Positions 107 to 5,159 of a stretch of 5,669 bases of DNA are shown piece by piece. A program made the position numbers and the translations under genes. Numbering within the stretch: the stretch's first letter is position 1; the number at the start of each line of letters is the position of its first letter. This stretch comes from a virus (lineage: Duplodnaviria; Heunggongvirae; Uroviricota; Caudoviricetes). The notes beneath the pieces were generated by a model that was not told the origin of the DNA, searched no databases, and worked only from the letters and a program-made list of their open reading frames with translations. The stretch is from the IMG/VR virus record IMGVR_UViG_3300029253_000142; one strand, 5' to 3'.

Positions 107-340
107 GTGAGTACATCGGCTACCATTCTCGACATGTGCTGTGGCAGTCGCATGCTCTGGTTCGATAAGAATGACGAATGGTCGATATTTAGCGATATCA
201 GGAAAGAGGAACATTCGCTATGTGATGGACGTCACCCGATTATTAATCCCGACATTATAGCTGATTTTCGTGCGCTGCCGTGGTTGTCTGCTTTGCATCA
301 AAAGCAGACATTACCAGATTTAGACATCTGTTTCCGATAG
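107..340 (+). CDS. 77-aa hypothetical protein; N-terminus resembles a class I SAM-dependent methyltransferase fragment (possible remnant)
   Basis: GTG start at 107 is preceded by a strong SD (GGGAGG, 94-99). Residues ILDMCCGS resemble SAM-binding motif I (hhDxGCGxG) and [10 protein letters not shown] resembles the DAxxLPF motif of small-molecule methyltransferases. At 77 aa it is too short to be a complete methyltransferase fold. Confidence 0.45.
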
Positions 341-393
341 CCCGTTCTGATGCTACACTTTTTGCTATTTTCATGAACCTCATAAACACATTT

Positions 394-1059
394 ATGACTG
401 TTGCTGATTTCAAACGCCCCAAATTGGAGCTCCCAAACGGGGCAAAAAAACTATTACTGCACTCTTGCTGTGCTCCATGTTCCGGTGAAGTGATGGAGGC
501 GCTTCAGGCCTCGGGAATCGACTACACCATCTTTTTCTACAACCCGAACATTCATCCTCAGAAAGAGTATTTAATTCGTAAGGATGAGAATATTCGCTTT
601 GCTAAACAACACGGCGTGCCATTTATTGATGCTGATTACGACACAGACAACTGGTTTGAGCGAGCCAAAGGAATGGAATGGGAGCCTGAACGAGGGATCC
701 GTTGTACCATGTGTTTTGACATGCGTTTTGAGCGGACTGCGCTGTATGCCGCTGAAAATGGTTTCAGTGTGATCAGTAGCTCACTGGGCATTTCACGCTG
801 GAAAAATATGCAGCAGGTTAACGACTGTGGACGGCGAGCCGTCGCGTATTATCCGGGCATGGTGTACTGGGATTATAACTGGCGAAAGCAGGGCGGCTCT
901 TCCCGCATGATTGAAATCAGCAAGCGCGAACAATTCTATCAGCAGGAATATTGTGGCTGCGTGTATTCACTGCGCGATACCAATCTACACCGCAAATCTC
1001 AGGGACGCCCTCTAATCAAAATTGGTCAACTCCACTACGGTAAAGAAGGCCAGGAATGA
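394..1059 (+). CDS. queH: QueH-like epoxyqueuosine reductase homolog (DUF208 family)
   Basis: Long ORF with CCAPC (466-480), CTMC and CGC cysteine motifs, consistent with my recollection of the QueH/DUF208 family. Start is uncertain: ATG 394 is preferred, ATG 373 and the ORF-track start 280 are alternatives, and none has a clear SD. Stop is TGA 1057-1059. Confidence 0.75.
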
Positions 1060-1138
1060 TTTTATATTATGCCAACGGAGCGTAGCAGTGTTTCTATATA
1101 TAGTACGCCTACCTTAATTTTCAAATAATCATGATTAA

Positions 1139-1173
1139 TGAGCAGGTCATCAGTGCAAGCAATGACCTGCTCA
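1139..1173 (+). terminator. Perfect 12-bp inverted repeat (TGAGCAGGTCAT / ATGACCTGCTCA, 11-nt loop) downstream of the queH-like gene; possible terminator or protein-binding site
   Basis: Arms at 1139-1150 and 1162-1173 are exact reverse complements. The downstream sequence TCTTGTTG is only weakly T-rich, so terminator function is uncertain. Confidence 0.3.
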
Positions 1174-1467
1174 TCTTGTTGAAATTAGAGGAAATCTTGC
1201 AGCCATGATATGGCTTAAAATAACGTTTGATTATTTTACCTGCTGTTTGTCCCTGGTTTAAAGTCGGTTGTCTGATTTGATTACGCGCAACTGACGCTTA
1301 CGTATTGAAGTAACGAGCACGAAGACACATATTTATCAGTGCCTGTATACGTCAAGAGCAGGAGATTTATGTGCTGGTTCTCAAATGCACGCTGGCTATT
1401 GTGGCTGTAATGGCAATTTATTGTCTTGTTATTGTTCTTATGGATCACCTTTCTGATTGATTTCATA

Positions 1468-1496: not shown

Positions 1497-1559
1497 GGCT
1501 GCGGGTGCTTGAGGCTATCTGCCTCGGGCATGAACACCAACGGCAGATAGAGAAAAGCC

Positions 1560-1625
1560 CCAGTTAACATTACGCGTCCTGCAAGACGCTTAACATTAAT
1601 CTGAGGCCAATTTCATGCTAGACAC
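1560..1625 (-). ncRNA. Candidate Sok-like antisense RNA covering the mok translation-initiation region
   Basis: By analogy with hok/sok loci, Sok is encoded antisense to the mok SD/start. A weak minus-strand promoter (TTGCCT, plus 1658-1653; TAACCT, plus 1635-1630) would start transcription near 1623. A hairpin GCGTC/GACGC (1574-1589) is flanked by a 9-bp direct repeat TTAACATTA. Boundaries are guesses. Confidence 0.2.
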
Positions 1626-1827
1626 ATGTAGGTTAGCCTCTTACGTGCCGAAAGGCAAGGAGAAGCAGGCTATGAAGCAGCAAAAGGCGATGTTAATCGC
1701 CCTGATCGTCATCTGTTTAACCGTCATAGTGACGGCACTGGTAACGAGGAAAGACCTCTGCGAGGTACGAATCCGAACCGGCCAGACGGAGGTCGCTGTC
1801 TTCACAGCTTACGAACCTGAGGAGTAA
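1615..1827 (+). CDS. mok-like reading frame (in-frame upstream extension of hok)
   Basis: ATG at 1615 with GAGG at 1603-1606 upstream; 70 codons in the same frame and with the same stop as hok, matching the Mok/Hok arrangement as I recall it from annotated chromosomal hok loci. Confidence 0.4.
   Translation: MLDTCRLASYVPKGKEKQAMKQQKAMLIALIVICLTVIVTALVTRKDLCEVRIRTGQTEVAVFTAYEPEE
1672..1827 (+). CDS. hokD: Hok/Gef-family type I toxin, 51 aa, matching HokD (RelF) as recalled
   Basis: Translation MKQQKAMLIALIVICLTVIVTALVTRKDLCEVRIRTGQTEVAVFTAYEPEE has a single transmembrane helix and the Hok signature, and matches my recollection of HokD/RelF. Strong SD AAGGAG (1656-1661) precedes ATG 1672; stop TAA at 1825-1827. 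Confidence 0.9.
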   Translation: MKQQKAMLIALIVICLTVIVTALVTRKDLCEVRIRTGQTEVAVFTAYEPEE

Positions 1828-2641: not shown

Positions 2642-3691
2642 GTGCGGGTATTACTTCGACCTGTTCTGGTACCGGAGCTCGGGCTGGTGATCGTTAAGCC
2701 GGGCCGTGAATCCATGCCGGTATTCCACAATACCCGGGTACTGGTGGAGCCGGAACCGAAAAGCATGCGTAATCTGTCGTCCGGGGTCGTTCCTGCCGTT
2801 CGCCAGCCGCTGGCGGAGGATAAATCATTACTGCCATTTTTCAGCGACGAACGAGTGATTCGTGCTGCTGGTGGTGCTGGCGCATTGTCTGACTGGTTAC
2901 TGCGCCATGTTAAATCCTGCCAGTGGCCACACGGCGATTATCACCACAGTGAAACCGTCATTCACCGTTATGGTACCGGCGCAATGGTGTTGTGCTGGCA
3001 CTGCGACAACCAGCTGCGTGACCAGACATCCGAATCACTCGGGCAACTTGCTCATCAAAACCTGTCTGCATGGATGATTGACGTCATCGGTCACGCAATA
3101 AGCGGTACGCAGGAGCGTGAATTATCTCTGGCTGAATTATCCTGGTGGGCGGTCCGCAATCAGGTGGCGGACGCGCTACCGGAAGCGGTATTACGTCGTT
3201 CGCTGGGGTTGCGTGCGGAAAAAATCCGCTCAATGTACCGTGAAAGCGACATCGTACCGGGAGAGCAGACCGCCACCAGCATACTGAAACAGCGCACAAA
3301 AAATCTTGCGCCGCTGCCTCACGCCCACCAGCAACAGAACCCACCACAGGAAAAGGCGGTGGTCAGTATCGCCGTTGATCCGGAGTCTCCGGAATCTTTC
3401 ATGAAGCGGCCTAAACGTCGCCGTTGGGTAAATGAGAAATACAAACGCTGGGTAAAGACACAGCCGTGCGTGTGTTGTGGTAAGCCAGCCGACGATCCCC
3501 ATCACCTGATTGGTCATGGTCAGGGAGGTATGGGGACAAAAGCCCACGATATTTTCACGCTACCGCTGTGTCGGGAGCATCACAACGAGCTTCATGCGGA
3601 TCCGCTGGCGTTCGAAGAAAAGCATGGTTCTCAGGTTGATTTAATTTTTCGTTTTCTTGATCACGCCTTTGCAACTGGCGTGCTTGGGTAA
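2642..3691 (+). CDS. ydfU: YdfU-like DUF968 protein (349 aa) with Cys/His-rich, HNH/zinc-finger-like motifs
   Basis: GTG 2642 preceded by SD GGAGG (2633-2637). The C-terminus carries CVCCGKP...HH...CREHHNELH and an internal CQWPHGDYHH...CWHCDNQ cluster. Size and position upstream of Q match Qin-prophage YdfU. Confidence 0.8.
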   Translation: MRVLLRPVLVPELGLVIVKPGRESMPVFHNTRVLVEPEPKSMRNLSSGVVPAVRQPLAEDKSLLPFFSDERVIRAAGGAGALSDWLLRHVKSCQWPHGDYHHSETVIHRYGTGAMVLCWHCDNQLRDQTSESLGQLAHQNLSAWMIDVIGHAISGTQERELSLAELSWWAVRNQVADALPEAVLRRSLGLRAEKIRSMYRESDIVPGEQTATSILKQRTKNLAPLPHAHQQQNPPQEKAVVSIAVDPESPESFMKRPKRRRWVNEKYKRWVKTQPCVCCGKPADDPHHLIGHGQGGMGTKAHDIFTLPLCREHHNELHADPLAFEEKHGSQVDLIFRFLDHAFATGVLG

Positions 3692-4810: not shown

Positions 4811-4839
4811 AAAAAACCACCGCCAGGTGGTTTTTTTTA
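4811..4839 (+). terminator. Rho-independent terminator after Q (possible tR'), A-tract/T-tract flanked
   Basis: AAAAAA, stem CCACC (4817-4821) / GGTGG (4826-4830) with GCCA loop, then TTTTTTTT (4831-4838). The symmetric A/T flanks mean it could terminate in both directions. Confidence 0.7.
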
Positions 4840-4961
4840 TGTCCGAAAATCGCGTCAGTACAGTAAATGCGCTGGTGGCGGTGAATACCTGTCTTTCAGC
4901 TTGCTGGCTTTTTCGACAAGAGTTATTGGTGTGTCACGTTAACCGGAAAAGGGAAAAAGAC

Positions 4962-5159
4962 ATGCTAAAACAGCAGGATATGACAGAAACCGCCAGAGTA
5001 GTGTTTAATGAATTAAGCGTTACCGAACCGGCGACAGTCGGGGAGATTGCACAGAATACTTACCTTTCACGCGAACGCTGCCAGTTAATACTGACCCAGC
5101 TGGTTATGGCGGGTCTGGCAGACTATCAGTTCGGTTGTTACAGACGCCTTCCGCAGTGA
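4962..5159 (+). CDS. Small hypothetical protein (about 66 aa) of unknown function
   Basis: ATG 4962 is preceded by AAGGGA (about 4948-4953). The sequence MLKQQDMTETARVVFNELSVTEPATVGEIAQNTYLSRERCQLILTQLVMAGLADY has the feel of a helix-turn-helix or winged-helix regulator, but this is only an impression. The in-frame ATG 4839 is an alternative start but lies in the terminator T-tract with no SD. Confidence 0.5.
   Translation: MLKQQDMTETARVVFNELSVTEPATVGEIAQNTYLSRERCQLILTQLVMAGLADYQFGCYRRLPQ

What the first reader, a model, noticed from the sequence alone, without database searches (positions are those of the whole stretch)
373..1059. QueH-like (DUF208) epoxyqueuosine reductase homolog as prophage cargo
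The ORF carries the CCAPC, CxxC and CxC cysteine clusters I associate with QueH, the cobalamin-independent epoxyqueuosine reductase. Flanking genes (hokD, ydfU, rusA) place it in an enterobacterial lambdoid prophage, and E. coli normally finishes queuosine synthesis with the B12-dependent QueG. A phage-borne QueH could keep tRNA queuosine maturation going under B12 limitation, or act on a 7-deazaguanine intermediate in some other way. Its start codon lacks an obvious SD, and a truncated methyltransferase-like ORF lies just upstream, so it looks like an acquired accessory cassette.
Basis: partly seen in the sequence, partly recalled or inferred. Interest (0 to 1): 0.6.

Follow-up and report, generated by a model that had tools for sequence, protein, structure and literature searches.

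The report
Prophage-borne B12-independent queuosine enzyme QueH
The ORF is an intact, strongly conserved QueH (cobalamin-independent epoxyqueuosine reductase) carried as a small self-promoted cargo gene in Qin-like lambdoid prophages of about 18% of E. coli; databases already name it, but its role next to the host's universal B12-dependent QueG is untested.

Summary
The ORF ending at 1059 matches Pfam QueH end to end (E=3e-65) and solved T. maritima QueH (E=8e-22), and keeps all six QueH cysteines. The likelier start is ATG 394 (221 aa), not 373.

It lies in a fixed slot of lambdoid (Qin-like) prophages, DUF977 > queH > hok/sok > ydfU > rusA > Q. This holds in 80 of 80 IMG/VR contigs, in the isolated phage HannyBb and in E. 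coli B REL606.

- **Prevalence:** 995 of 5426 complete E. coli genomes carry it, and all 5426 carry queG.
- **Selection:** prophage alleles give dN/dS of 0.03-0.06 with dS up to 0.45.
- **Origin:** the closest relatives (86-92% aa) are chromosomal queH genes of Scandinavium, Kluyvera, Enterobacter and Erwinia. They share a TGCTACA(C/A)T extended -10-like motif upstream, so the ~790-bp cassette probably brought its own promoter.

Best reading: an active QueH that makes the last queuosine step independent of B12 in lysogens. The enzymology rests on homology; the benefit is inferred.

It is not new as an annotation, since RefSeq already calls it QueH. PHROGs lists it as unknown function, and I found no paper on it. 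BL21(DE3) has a clean 1,361-bp deletion of it relative to REL606, which gives a ready natural test pair.

The parts
394..1059 (+). queH coding sequence (221 aa plus stop). ATG 373 is an alternative in-frame start that is not conserved.
   Evidence: Pfam PF02677 E=3e-65, full length. PDB 7lc5 E=8e-22. The PGAP CDS for WP_021568046.1 starts here. The ORF is intact in 80 of 80 IMG/VR copies. dN/dS is 0.03-0.06.
351..371 (+). Putative cassette promoter: two extended -10-like motifs, TGcTACACT (351-359) and TGcTATTTT (363-371), 43 and 31 nt upstream of ATG 394. No Shine-Dalgarno follows.
   Evidence: Both motifs are conserved in all five prophage lineages compared and in 80 of 80 IMG/VR copies. The first motif also lies upstream of chromosomal queH in Scandinavium, Kluyvera, Enterobacter, Symbiopectobacterium and Erwinia. 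The consensus scan, which needs a -35 match, did not report it. Function is inferred.
274..393 (+). Left end of the queH cassette, comprising the junction with the truncated methyltransferase gene and the 5' non-coding region.
   Evidence: Homology to an intact class I SAM methyltransferase gene (strain 95JB1) ends near window 273. Other queH-bearing lineages and E. albertii align only from 279.
107..292 (+). Methyltransferase pseudogene, N-terminal part only, truncated where the queH cassette begins.
   Evidence: RefSeq annotates it as 'methyltransferase; incomplete; missing C-terminus'. It matches PHROG DNA methyltransferase families at E=3e-28. The intact homolog is 157 aa.
1060..1065 (+). 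Right end of the minimal queH cassette.
   Evidence: In the L003/L008 lineages and in E. albertii the sequence jumps from window 1065 straight to 1438, the hok/sok region.
1066..1437 (.). Lineage-specific spacer between queH and hok/sok. It contains a 13-bp hairpin at 1138-1174 that may act as a terminator for queH.
   Evidence: The spacer is present in the window, REL606 and L010 lineages and absent in most others. The hairpin folds at -22 kcal/mol, z=-3.8, and is followed by a weak U-tract. The terminator scan did not call it.
1503..1827 (+). hok/sok type I toxin-antitoxin locus, the invariant downstream neighbour of queH.
   Evidence: Rfam sok, 115 bits. Pfam Hok/gef E=3e-23. It follows queH in all 80 IMG/VR loci whose sequence extends that far.

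Best explanation
Window 394-1059 encodes a functional QueH, the iron-sulfur, cobalamin-independent epoxyqueuosine reductase. It is carried as a ~790-bp cassette (about 274/279 to 1065) in the early-right region of Qin-like lambdoid prophages, between the replication module (DUF977) and hok/sok-ydfU-rusA-Q.

A phage captured the cassette from a chromosomal queH of another member of the Enterobacterales, together with that gene's own extended -10 promoter. It is therefore probably transcribed in the lysogen independently of prophage induction. It also lies in the sense orientation of the early-right operon and would be co-transcribed on induction.

The enzyme reduces epoxyqueuosine (oQ34) to queuosine (Q34) on tRNA-Asp, -Asn, -His and -Tyr, the same reaction as host QueG. 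E. coli cannot make cobalamin de novo, so QueG works only when corrinoids are imported. A lysogen carrying QueH can complete queuosine synthesis without B12.

Shown here: family membership, ligand conservation, purifying selection, prophage location, prevalence, and co-occurrence with queG. Inferred: enzymatic activity (by homology), the promoter, expression in the lysogen, and any fitness benefit.
For: - **Family and ligands:** full-length Pfam QueH match, E=3e-65, and a match to solved QueH, E=8e-22. All six QueH cysteines are conserved, and the seventh position is Cys as in all 80 proteobacterial homologs.
- **Similarity to housekeeping genes:** 86-92% aa identity to chromosomal QueH of Scandinavium, Kluyvera, Enterobacter and Erwinia. 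Those genes sit in core chromosomal contexts such as purL-queH-glrK in Erwinia and next to tmcA in Providencia.
- **Selection:** dN/dS is 0.03-0.06 between prophage alleles with dS up to 0.45. The 221-aa ORF is intact in 80 of 80 IMG/VR copies, with only 6 protein variants across 21 DNA alleles. Of the 995 E. coli genomes with the gene, 985 have at least 80% coverage.
- **Location:** the slot is fixed in prophages with different replication and Q modules, in the isolated phage HannyBb and in E. coli B REL606.
- **Promoter:** the TGCTACA(C/A)T motif is shared between the prophage cassettes and chromosomal queH genes.
- **Redundancy:** queG is in 5426 of 5426 genomes.
- **Established knowledge (from my memory):** QueG needs cobalamin and E. 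coli accumulates oQ without B12 (Frey et al. 1988; Miles et al. 2011). DUF208/QueH replaces QueG (Zallot et al. 2017). T. maritima QueH has a [4Fe-4S] cluster plus an adjacent iron (Li et al. 2021).
Against: - No activity or expression data exist for this protein. NCBIfam has no model hit for it.
- The start codon has no Shine-Dalgarno sequence, and the generic sigma-70 scan found no promoter upstream.
- The position that is Asp13 in the solved T. maritima enzyme is Cys here. All close homologs share this, but I could not check it against an experimentally characterised CCAPC-type enzyme.
- It is unknown whether oQ-tRNA and Q-tRNA differ enough in function for the gene to matter. A queG deletion had no growth effect in one E. 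coli K-12 study (PMC11841063).
- BL21(DE3) lost the gene without obvious harm.
Confidence: 0.75

Rival explanations
1. The same enzyme serves the phage rather than the host. It is expressed mainly with the early-right operon after induction, or it presets the host's tRNA state. It shifts oQ to Q to tune decoding of NAU/NAC codons during lytic growth, or to manipulate a host response to (super)infection that runs through the oQ-to-Q step.
For: The gene is co-oriented with, and embedded in, the delayed-early operon between the replication genes and Q. In Shewanella, phage infection induces queG, lowers oQ and raises Q, with effects on biofilm formation and on the evolution of phage resistance (preprint 10.64898/2026.03.05.709803). 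queG frameshifts recurred in phage-challenged Vibrio isolates. The slot also hosts defence and addiction cargo: Kiwa, relBE and hok/sok.
Against: The cassette keeps the promoter motif of the chromosomal housekeeping genes, which argues for expression that does not depend on induction. Many carriers are defective prophages such as Qin in REL606, yet the ORF stays under purifying selection. This reading is not exclusive of the main explanation.
Confidence: 0.15
2. The protein acts on a different 7-deazaguanine substrate, for example as part of a phage DNA modification or anti-restriction pathway, or on a free nucleoside or base.
For: Phages are known to use 7-deazaguanine chemistry on their DNA (PMC6884629). 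The CCAPC motif differs from the CCAPD motif of the solved enzyme.
Against: The annotated prophage or phage has no DpdA/TGT-like transglycosylase and no preQ0-synthesis genes. The protein is 75-92% identical to chromosomal QueH across Proteobacteria, and all of those also carry CCAPC. Hutinet et al. found QueA/QueG/QueH absent from phages that carry deazaguanine DNA systems.
Confidence: 0.03
3. It is a component of an anti-phage defence system, alone or together with neighbouring genes, rather than a metabolic enzyme.
For: The gene occupies a variable cargo slot that holds a Kiwa system directly downstream in some lineages, and toxin-antitoxin modules in others.
Against: QueH has no PADLOC match. 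Kiwa is absent from the window and from most queH loci. No partner gene is consistently linked apart from hok/sok, which also occurs without queH.
Confidence: 0.04
4. It is a neutral hitchhiker: a captured gene with no current function, spreading with successful prophages.
For: It is redundant with the universal queG. It was lost in BL21(DE3) and truncated in a few genomes.
Against: dN/dS is 0.03-0.06 over dS up to 0.45, and no stop codons occur in 80 of 80 copies. About 99% of copies in 995 genomes are full length.
Confidence: 0.03

Closest known systems
QueH (DUF208, PF02677/IPR003828), cobalamin-independent epoxyqueuosine reductase; solved structure from Thermotoga maritima (PDB 7lc5/7lc7)
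   Same: It matches the Pfam profile over its full length. All six cysteines of the T. maritima enzyme align (C9, C10, C87, C90, C169, C171). Length and domain content are the same.
   Different: Asp13 of the T. maritima enzyme is Cys29 here (CCAPC rather than CCAPD), as in all 80 proteobacterial homologs examined. The gene is on a prophage in a host that already has QueG, rather than being the organism's only oQ reductase.
Chromosomal queH of Enterobacterales (Scandinavium 92%, Kluyvera and Enterobacter 88-90%, Erwinia 86% aa identity)
   Same: The protein is near-identical. The same extended -10-like motif, TGCTACA(C/A)T, lies about 35-45 nt upstream of the start.
   Different: Those genes sit in core chromosomal neighbourhoods. 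Here the gene is a ~790-bp insert in a lambdoid prophage that truncates a phage methyltransferase gene.
QueG, the cobalamin- and [4Fe-4S]-dependent epoxyqueuosine reductase of E. coli (b4166)
   Same: It is predicted to catalyse the same reaction, oQ34 to Q34 in tRNA. The two genes co-occur in every carrier genome.
   Different: The two are unrelated in sequence and fold, and QueH needs no corrinoid. queG is core (5426 of 5426 genomes), whereas queH is accessory (995 of 5426).
Lambdoid prophage morons and cargo in the slot between the replication genes and Q (relBE and flxA in K-12 Qin; Kiwa; hok/sok)
   Same: The position is the same. The gene is present or absent among otherwise related phages, and it is compact with its own putative promoter.
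   Different: The cargo is a tRNA-modification enzyme rather than a toxin-antitoxin, defence or virulence gene.

Membership tests
QueH (PF02677) | Significant, full-length match to the family profile above the curated cutoff | tested here: met
   E=3e-65, 220 bits against a cutoff of 23.5, profile positions 1-174 of 175.
QueH (PF02677) | Sequence homology to an experimentally solved QueH | tested here: met
   T. maritima QueH 7lc5: E=8e-22, with residues 27-203 of the 228-aa translation (from ATG 373) aligned to residues 4-178 of the chain.
QueH (PF02677) | Six conserved cysteines (CC...CxxC...CxC) that hold the [4Fe-4S] cluster and the adjacent iron | tested here: met
   C25, C26, C104, C107, C187 and C189 align with T. 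maritima C9, C10, C87, C90, C169 and C171. They are invariant in 82 of 82 aligned sequences.
QueH (PF02677) | Third residue of the CCAPx motif (Asp13 in the solved enzyme; PDB also holds a CCAPN variant) | tested here: inconclusive
   The residue is Cys29 here (CCAPC), as in 81 of 82 aligned sequences; only T. maritima has Asp. Cys can also bind metal. The primary papers were not available to confirm the ligand assignment.
QueH (PF02677) | Reduces epoxyqueuosine to queuosine in tRNA without cobalamin | not testable with these tools
   This needs complementation of a queG mutant, or LC-MS of tRNA nucleosides.
QueH (PF02677) | The host makes the substrate, that is, it has the rest of the queuosine pathway (tgt, queA) | not tested
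   This is established knowledge for E. coli. Only queG was checked here and it is universal.
Lambdoid prophage moron / accessory cassette | Lies within a lambdoid prophage between conserved modules, and is present or absent among related phages | tested here: met
   The order DUF977 > queH > hok/sok holds in 80 of 80 IMG/VR loci. The gene is absent at the same slot in mEp460, K-12 Qin and BL21(DE3).
Lambdoid prophage moron / accessory cassette | Own promoter and terminator allowing expression from the repressed prophage | tested here: inconclusive
   Conserved extended -10-like motifs are present, and some lineages have a hairpin. The generic scans called neither, and there are no expression data.
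Phage 7-deazaguanine DNA-modification systems (Dpd) | DpdA/TGT-like transglycosylase plus preQ0-synthesis genes in the phage | tested here: not met
   No such genes appear in the annotated prophage or phage regions. They are also absent from the window's ORFs.
Known anti-phage defence systems (PADLOC) | Match to a defence-system protein model | tested here: not met
   QueH has no PADLOC match. By contrast, the neighbouring genes in other lineages match KwaA and KwaB strongly.

The most novel reading that the evidence does not exclude
The prophage QueH is a true lysogenic-conversion factor. It uncouples the oQ-to-Q step, which at least one bacterium regulates during phage infection, from corrinoid supply in roughly one in five E. 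coli strains. It thereby changes NAU/NAC decoding, stress or virulence traits, or the outcome of superinfection in B12-poor niches. That would make it the first documented temperate-phage auxiliary gene for tRNA anticodon modification in E. coli. It would also be an unrecognised cause of differences in Q/oQ content between strains, for example REL606 against BL21(DE3) and K-12.
Probability: 0.3. Interest if true: 0.55.

Novelty: already known. Interest (0 to 1): 0.3.

Why it matters
If the gene is active, about 18% of E. coli strains, including the Lenski ancestor REL606, complete queuosine synthesis without vitamin B12, while K-12 and BL21(DE3) cannot. That bears on how tRNA-modification and codon-decoding data are compared between strains. 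It also bears on the biology of extraintestinal and environmental niches where corrinoids are scarce.

It would also be a clear case of a temperate phage carrying a tRNA-modification enzyme as cargo. A 2019 survey of viruses found no QueA, QueG or QueH homologs, and PHROGs still lists this family as 'unknown function'.

As a sequence annotation, though, it is ordinary: a canonical family member that RefSeq already names correctly.

Tried and rejected
- **NCBIfam:** no model hit for QueH. Pfam was used instead.
- **Promoter and terminator scan:** nothing was called next to queH. The promoter proposal rests on comparative conservation.
- **Literature:** eight searches (QueH+prophage, DUF208, epoxyqueuosine reductase+phage, epoxyqueuosine+BL21 and others) found no paper on an E. 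coli prophage QueH. Many 'QueH' hits were the author name Quehenberger. The key primary papers, Zallot 2017 and Li 2021, are not held, so statements about them come from my memory.
- **QueH in other phages:** besides HannyBb, 24 INPHARED records hold homologs. The one examined, MT835504 ('UNVERIFIED'), is bacterial chromosome carrying ABC transporters, argH, asd and topA. The very large 'Acinetobacter' and 'Staphylococcus' phage records look equally doubtful, so I do not count them as phage-borne QueH.
- **ATG 373 as the start:** rejected in favour of 394.
- **Methyltransferase-QueH fusion through the GTG-280 ORF:** rejected. The methyltransferase frame differs and the upstream stretch is not conserved as coding sequence.
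- **Rfam:** no riboswitch or other RNA near queH, only sok.
- **Structure prediction and fold search:** not run, because sequence-level evidence was already decisive.

Full report
**1. The observation**

The window has an ORF in frame 1 that ends at TGA 1057-1059, with in-frame ATGs at 373 and 394.
- Its product matches Pfam PF02677 (QueH) at E=3e-65, covering profile positions 1-174 of 175.
- It matches the solved Thermotoga maritima QueH (7lc5) at E=8e-22.
In the numbering of the 221-aa protein they are C25-C26-A-P-C29, C104-x-x-C107 and C187-x-C189.
- In an alignment with T. maritima QueH and 80 proteobacterial homologs, the six cysteines that align with T. maritima C9, C10, C87, C90, C169 and C171 are invariant in 82 of 82 sequences.
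- The position of T. maritima Asp13 is Cys in the query and in all 80 homologs. CCAPC is therefore the usual form in this clade, and T. maritima's CCAPD is the exception.

The flanking genes are as described: hok/sok (Pfam Hok/gef; Rfam sok at 1503-1677), rem, ydfU (DUF968), rusA and a Q antiterminator. RefSeq annotates the small ORF upstream (107-292) as a methyltransferase pseudogene lacking its C-terminus, and it matches PHROG DNA-methyltransferase families.

**2. Start codon**

PGAP starts the gene at window 394 (MTVADFKRP...; WP_021568046.1). ATG 373 is not conserved: in the divergent L010 lineage it reads ATT, and the sequence between 373 and 393 varies. The N-termini of homologs from other genera line up with 394.

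**3. Where it sits and how common it is**

*Annotated genomes*
- The queH DNA is found in 995 of 5426 complete E. coli genomes, at 1016 places of which 1013 are chromosomal. RefSeq annotates it everywhere as 'epoxyqueuosine reductase QueH', and 985 genomes hold at least 80% of the gene.
- Annotated examples place it in Qin-like or lambdoid prophages next to rspAB. It lies downstream of the cI/cro-like, YdaT, replication and DUF977 genes, and upstream of hokD-rem-ydfU-(rusA)-Q.
- E. coli B REL606 carries the identical protein and the same truncated methyltransferase.
- One isolated temperate phage, Escherichia phage HannyBb, carries a 99.6%-identical copy, annotated there as a hypothetical protein.

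*IMG/VR contigs*
- IMG/VR holds 189 viral contigs with close relatives.
- In the best 80, the ORF is always an intact 221 codons, with 6 protein variants and 21 DNA alleles.
- The order is always DUF977 > (methyltransferase fragment) > queH > (spacer) > hok/sok > (rem) > ydfU > rusA > Q, whichever replication module the prophage has.

*What else occupies the slot*
- K-12 Qin has relBE, ydfV and flxA there and no queH.
- mEp460 has an unrelated reverse-strand gene.
- Some queH lineages have a complete Kiwa defence pair between queH and hokD, with KwaA at E=1e-101 and KwaB at E=3e-159.

**4. Cassette limits and origin**

*Limits*
- Homology to an intact 157-aa class I SAM methyltransferase gene in a queH-less prophage (strain 95JB1) stops near window 273.
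- The other queH lineages, and an E. albertii prophage, align with the window only from 279.
- On the right, those lineages jump from window 1065 directly to 1438.
- The minimal shared module therefore runs from about 274/279 to 1065, roughly 790 bp, and consists of little more than the gene and about 115 nt of upstream sequence.
- Window 1066-1437 is a lineage-specific spacer with a 13-bp hairpin at 1138-1174 (-22 kcal/mol, z=-3.8).

*Origin*
- The closest proteins outside Escherichia are chromosomal QueH of Scandinavium (92% aa, 86% nt), Kluyvera and Enterobacter (88-90%), Symbiopectobacterium (87%) and Erwinia (86%).
- Where I looked at gene neighbourhoods, these are core chromosomal contexts: purL-queH-glrK-glrR-glnB-hmp-glyA in an Erwinia, and next to tmcA in Providencia. 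The 90%-identical metagenomic relatives are flanked by LysR, acetyltransferase, CsbD and EAL genes.
- The gene thus looks like a housekeeping queH captured by a lambdoid phage.

**5. A promoter carried along**

An extended -10-like motif, TGcTACACT (351-359), lies 43 nt upstream of ATG 394. A second one, TGcTATTTT (363-371), lies 31 nt upstream.
- Both are present in all five prophage lineages compared, including one whose further upstream sequence is unrelated, and in 80 of 80 IMG/VR copies.
- The first motif recurs at the same distance upstream of chromosomal queH in several genera:
  - Scandinavium: TGCTACAAT
  - Kluyvera: TGCTACAAT
  - Enterobacter quasihormaechei: TGCTACACT
  - Symbiopectobacterium: TGCTACACT
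  - Erwinia: TGCTACACT

- The generic sigma-70 scan, which requires a -35 match, did not report it.

I infer that the cassette carries the native queH promoter and can be transcribed from a repressed prophage. This has not been shown.

**6. Selection**

Pairwise Nei-Gojobori estimates between the window allele and four other prophage alleles give dS of 0.18-0.41 and dN of 0.010-0.014, so dN/dS is 0.03-0.06. Together with the uniformly intact ORFs, this rules out a decaying passenger. A few genomes have truncated copies.

**7. Relation to the host pathway**

K-12 queG DNA finds a full-length match in 5426 of 5426 genomes. Every queH carrier therefore also has the cobalamin-dependent enzyme.

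The following comes from established knowledge, cited from memory because the papers are not held:
- QueG needs cobalamin.
- E. coli cannot synthesise cobalamin de novo.
- E. coli accumulates oQ in tRNA when grown without B12.
- DUF208/QueH was identified as the non-orthologous replacement of QueG.
- The T. maritima enzyme has a [4Fe-4S] cluster with an adjacent iron.

Papers that are held confirm the general picture. [quoted passage not shown] QueG is cobalamin-dependent and QueH is iron-dependent. Some bacteria, such as S. aureus, carry both enzymes, apparently used according to cofactor availability.

**8. Most likely mechanism**

The gene most likely encodes an active QueH, expressed from its own promoter in lysogens and also by read-through of the early-right operon after induction. 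It would convert oQ34 to Q34 on tRNA-Asp, -Asn, -His and -Tyr without B12. I put about 0.9 on the enzymatic identity and about 0.75 on the whole statement, including activity in the lysogen. The adaptive value is inferred.

Its value may be small. A queG deletion had no growth phenotype in one K-12 study, and BL21(DE3) has lost queH.

**9. Rivals**

- **(a) A phage-centred role for the same activity.** A 2026 preprint reports that phage infection of Shewanella induces queG, lowers oQ and raises Q, with consequences for biofilm formation and resistance evolution. A Vibrio study found recurrent queG frameshifts in phage-challenged isolates. A prophage that controls this step could influence its own lytic growth or superinfection. 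This is compatible with the main explanation and untested.
- **(b) Action on another 7-deazaguanine substrate.** The prophage has no DpdA/TGT or preQ0 genes, and the protein is a near-copy of housekeeping QueH. This is unlikely.
- **(c) A defence component.** There is no PADLOC match, and no gene is consistently linked apart from hok/sok. This is unlikely.
- **(d) A neutral hitchhiker.** The selection data contradict this.

**10. Comparison with what is known, and novelty**

By every sequence criterion I could test, this is a member of the QueH family. The only difference from the solved enzyme is Cys in place of Asp13, a feature shared with its whole clade. RefSeq already names it QueH, so the identification is not new.

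Two things appear undescribed, at least in the 8 million papers searched: that it is carried on prophages, and what that carriage implies.
- Hutinet et al. 2019 state that no QueA, QueG or QueH homologs were found in the viruses they analysed.
- PHROGs v4 lists the family (phrog_3217) as 'unknown function', with a profile that begins only at residue 34, after the CCAPC motif. That suggests miscalled starts in phage annotations.
- Outside the Escherichia lambdoid group I found no convincing phage-borne QueH. The 'Bacteriophage sp.' record I examined is bacterial chromosome.

**11. A ready-made test**

BL21(DE3) differs from REL606 at this locus by a clean 1,361-bp deletion. It removes the 3' end of the DUF977 gene, the methyltransferase fragment, queH and most of the spacer, and the flanks are 100% identical. 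REL606, BL21(DE3) and K-12 thus form a natural queH+/queH- panel. Measuring Q and oQ in their tRNA with and without B12 would settle the central claim.

**12. Verdict**

The finding is real and correctly interpreted, and the checks run here bear that out, but it is an already annotated, canonical enzyme. Interest is modest. It lies in the unusual carrier and the untested physiological consequence, not in the molecule itself.

Noticed in passing
window 1-~73: The first ~73 nt are the terminal segment of an IS66-family element (ISEc8; tnpA/tnpB/transposase lie next to the matching segment in strain 7386Nal). It matches 9847 places in 3462 E. coli genomes. In this window it interrupts the 3' part of the DUF977 gene, and homology to queH-bearing relatives without the IS begins at 69.
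   Followed up: partly
L183 (BL21(DE3) NC_012971.2, 1591224-1591485) against L007 (REL606) 4901-6261: BL21(DE3) has a clean 1,361-bp deletion relative to REL606. It removes the end of the DUF977 gene, the methyltransferase fragment, queH and most of the spacer. The flanks are 100% identical and there is a 2-nt overlap at the junction.
   Followed up: yes
L008 4896-6535; L009 4887-6526: In some queH-bearing prophages a complete Kiwa defence pair is inserted between queH and hokD (KwaA at PADLOC E=1e-101, KwaB at E=3e-159). RefSeq names only the second gene, as 'KwaB-like'.
   Followed up: partly
window 394-1059 against phrog_3217: PHROGs v4 holds this family as 'unknown function'. Its 188-position profile aligns only from residue 34, downstream of the CCAPC motif, which suggests truncated gene calls in phage genomes.
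   Followed up: no
L184 (MT835504.1, 'UNVERIFIED: Bacteriophage sp.'): This phage-database record with a QueH homolog encodes ABC transporters, argininosuccinate lyase, aspartate-semialdehyde dehydrogenase and topoisomerase I around the gene. It is bacterial chromosome, not phage. Other such records are likely similar.
   Followed up: partly
L023-L102 (genome-contig loci): This QueH clade is unusually conserved, at 75-80% aa identity between Enterobacterales and Alphaproteobacteria such as Sphingomonas and Bradyrhizobium. A few hits carry odd labels: a 'Bacillus subtilis' contig, 'Candidatus Avacidaminococcus' and 'Kingella' MAGs at 78-86%. These may be contamination or recent transfer.
   Followed up: no
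window 1066-1437 (hairpin 1138-1174; minus-strand ORF 1281-1466): A spacer is present only in the window, REL606 and L010 lineages. It has a strong hairpin (-22 kcal/mol, z=-3.8) and a 61-aa minus-strand ORF with no PHROG match. HannyBb annotates hypothetical genes there.
   Followed up: partly
window 4827-5159: The ORF downstream of Q matches phrog_331 (unknown function, E=4e-46). It has a weak, sub-threshold TrmB-like helix-turn-helix hit, and RefSeq calls a shorter version a TrmB family regulator.
   Followed up: no
window 2642-3691: ydfU is a DUF968 protein with a sub-threshold HNH-nuclease-like C-terminal match (PF16784, E=2.6e-5). HannyBb annotates it as an HNH endonuclease.
   Followed up: no
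L185 (K-12 Qin) 5347-6738: In K-12 the slot homologous to the queH position holds relBE, ydfV and flxA. The region between the replication genes and hokD is therefore a general cargo hotspot of Qin-like prophages.
   Followed up: partly
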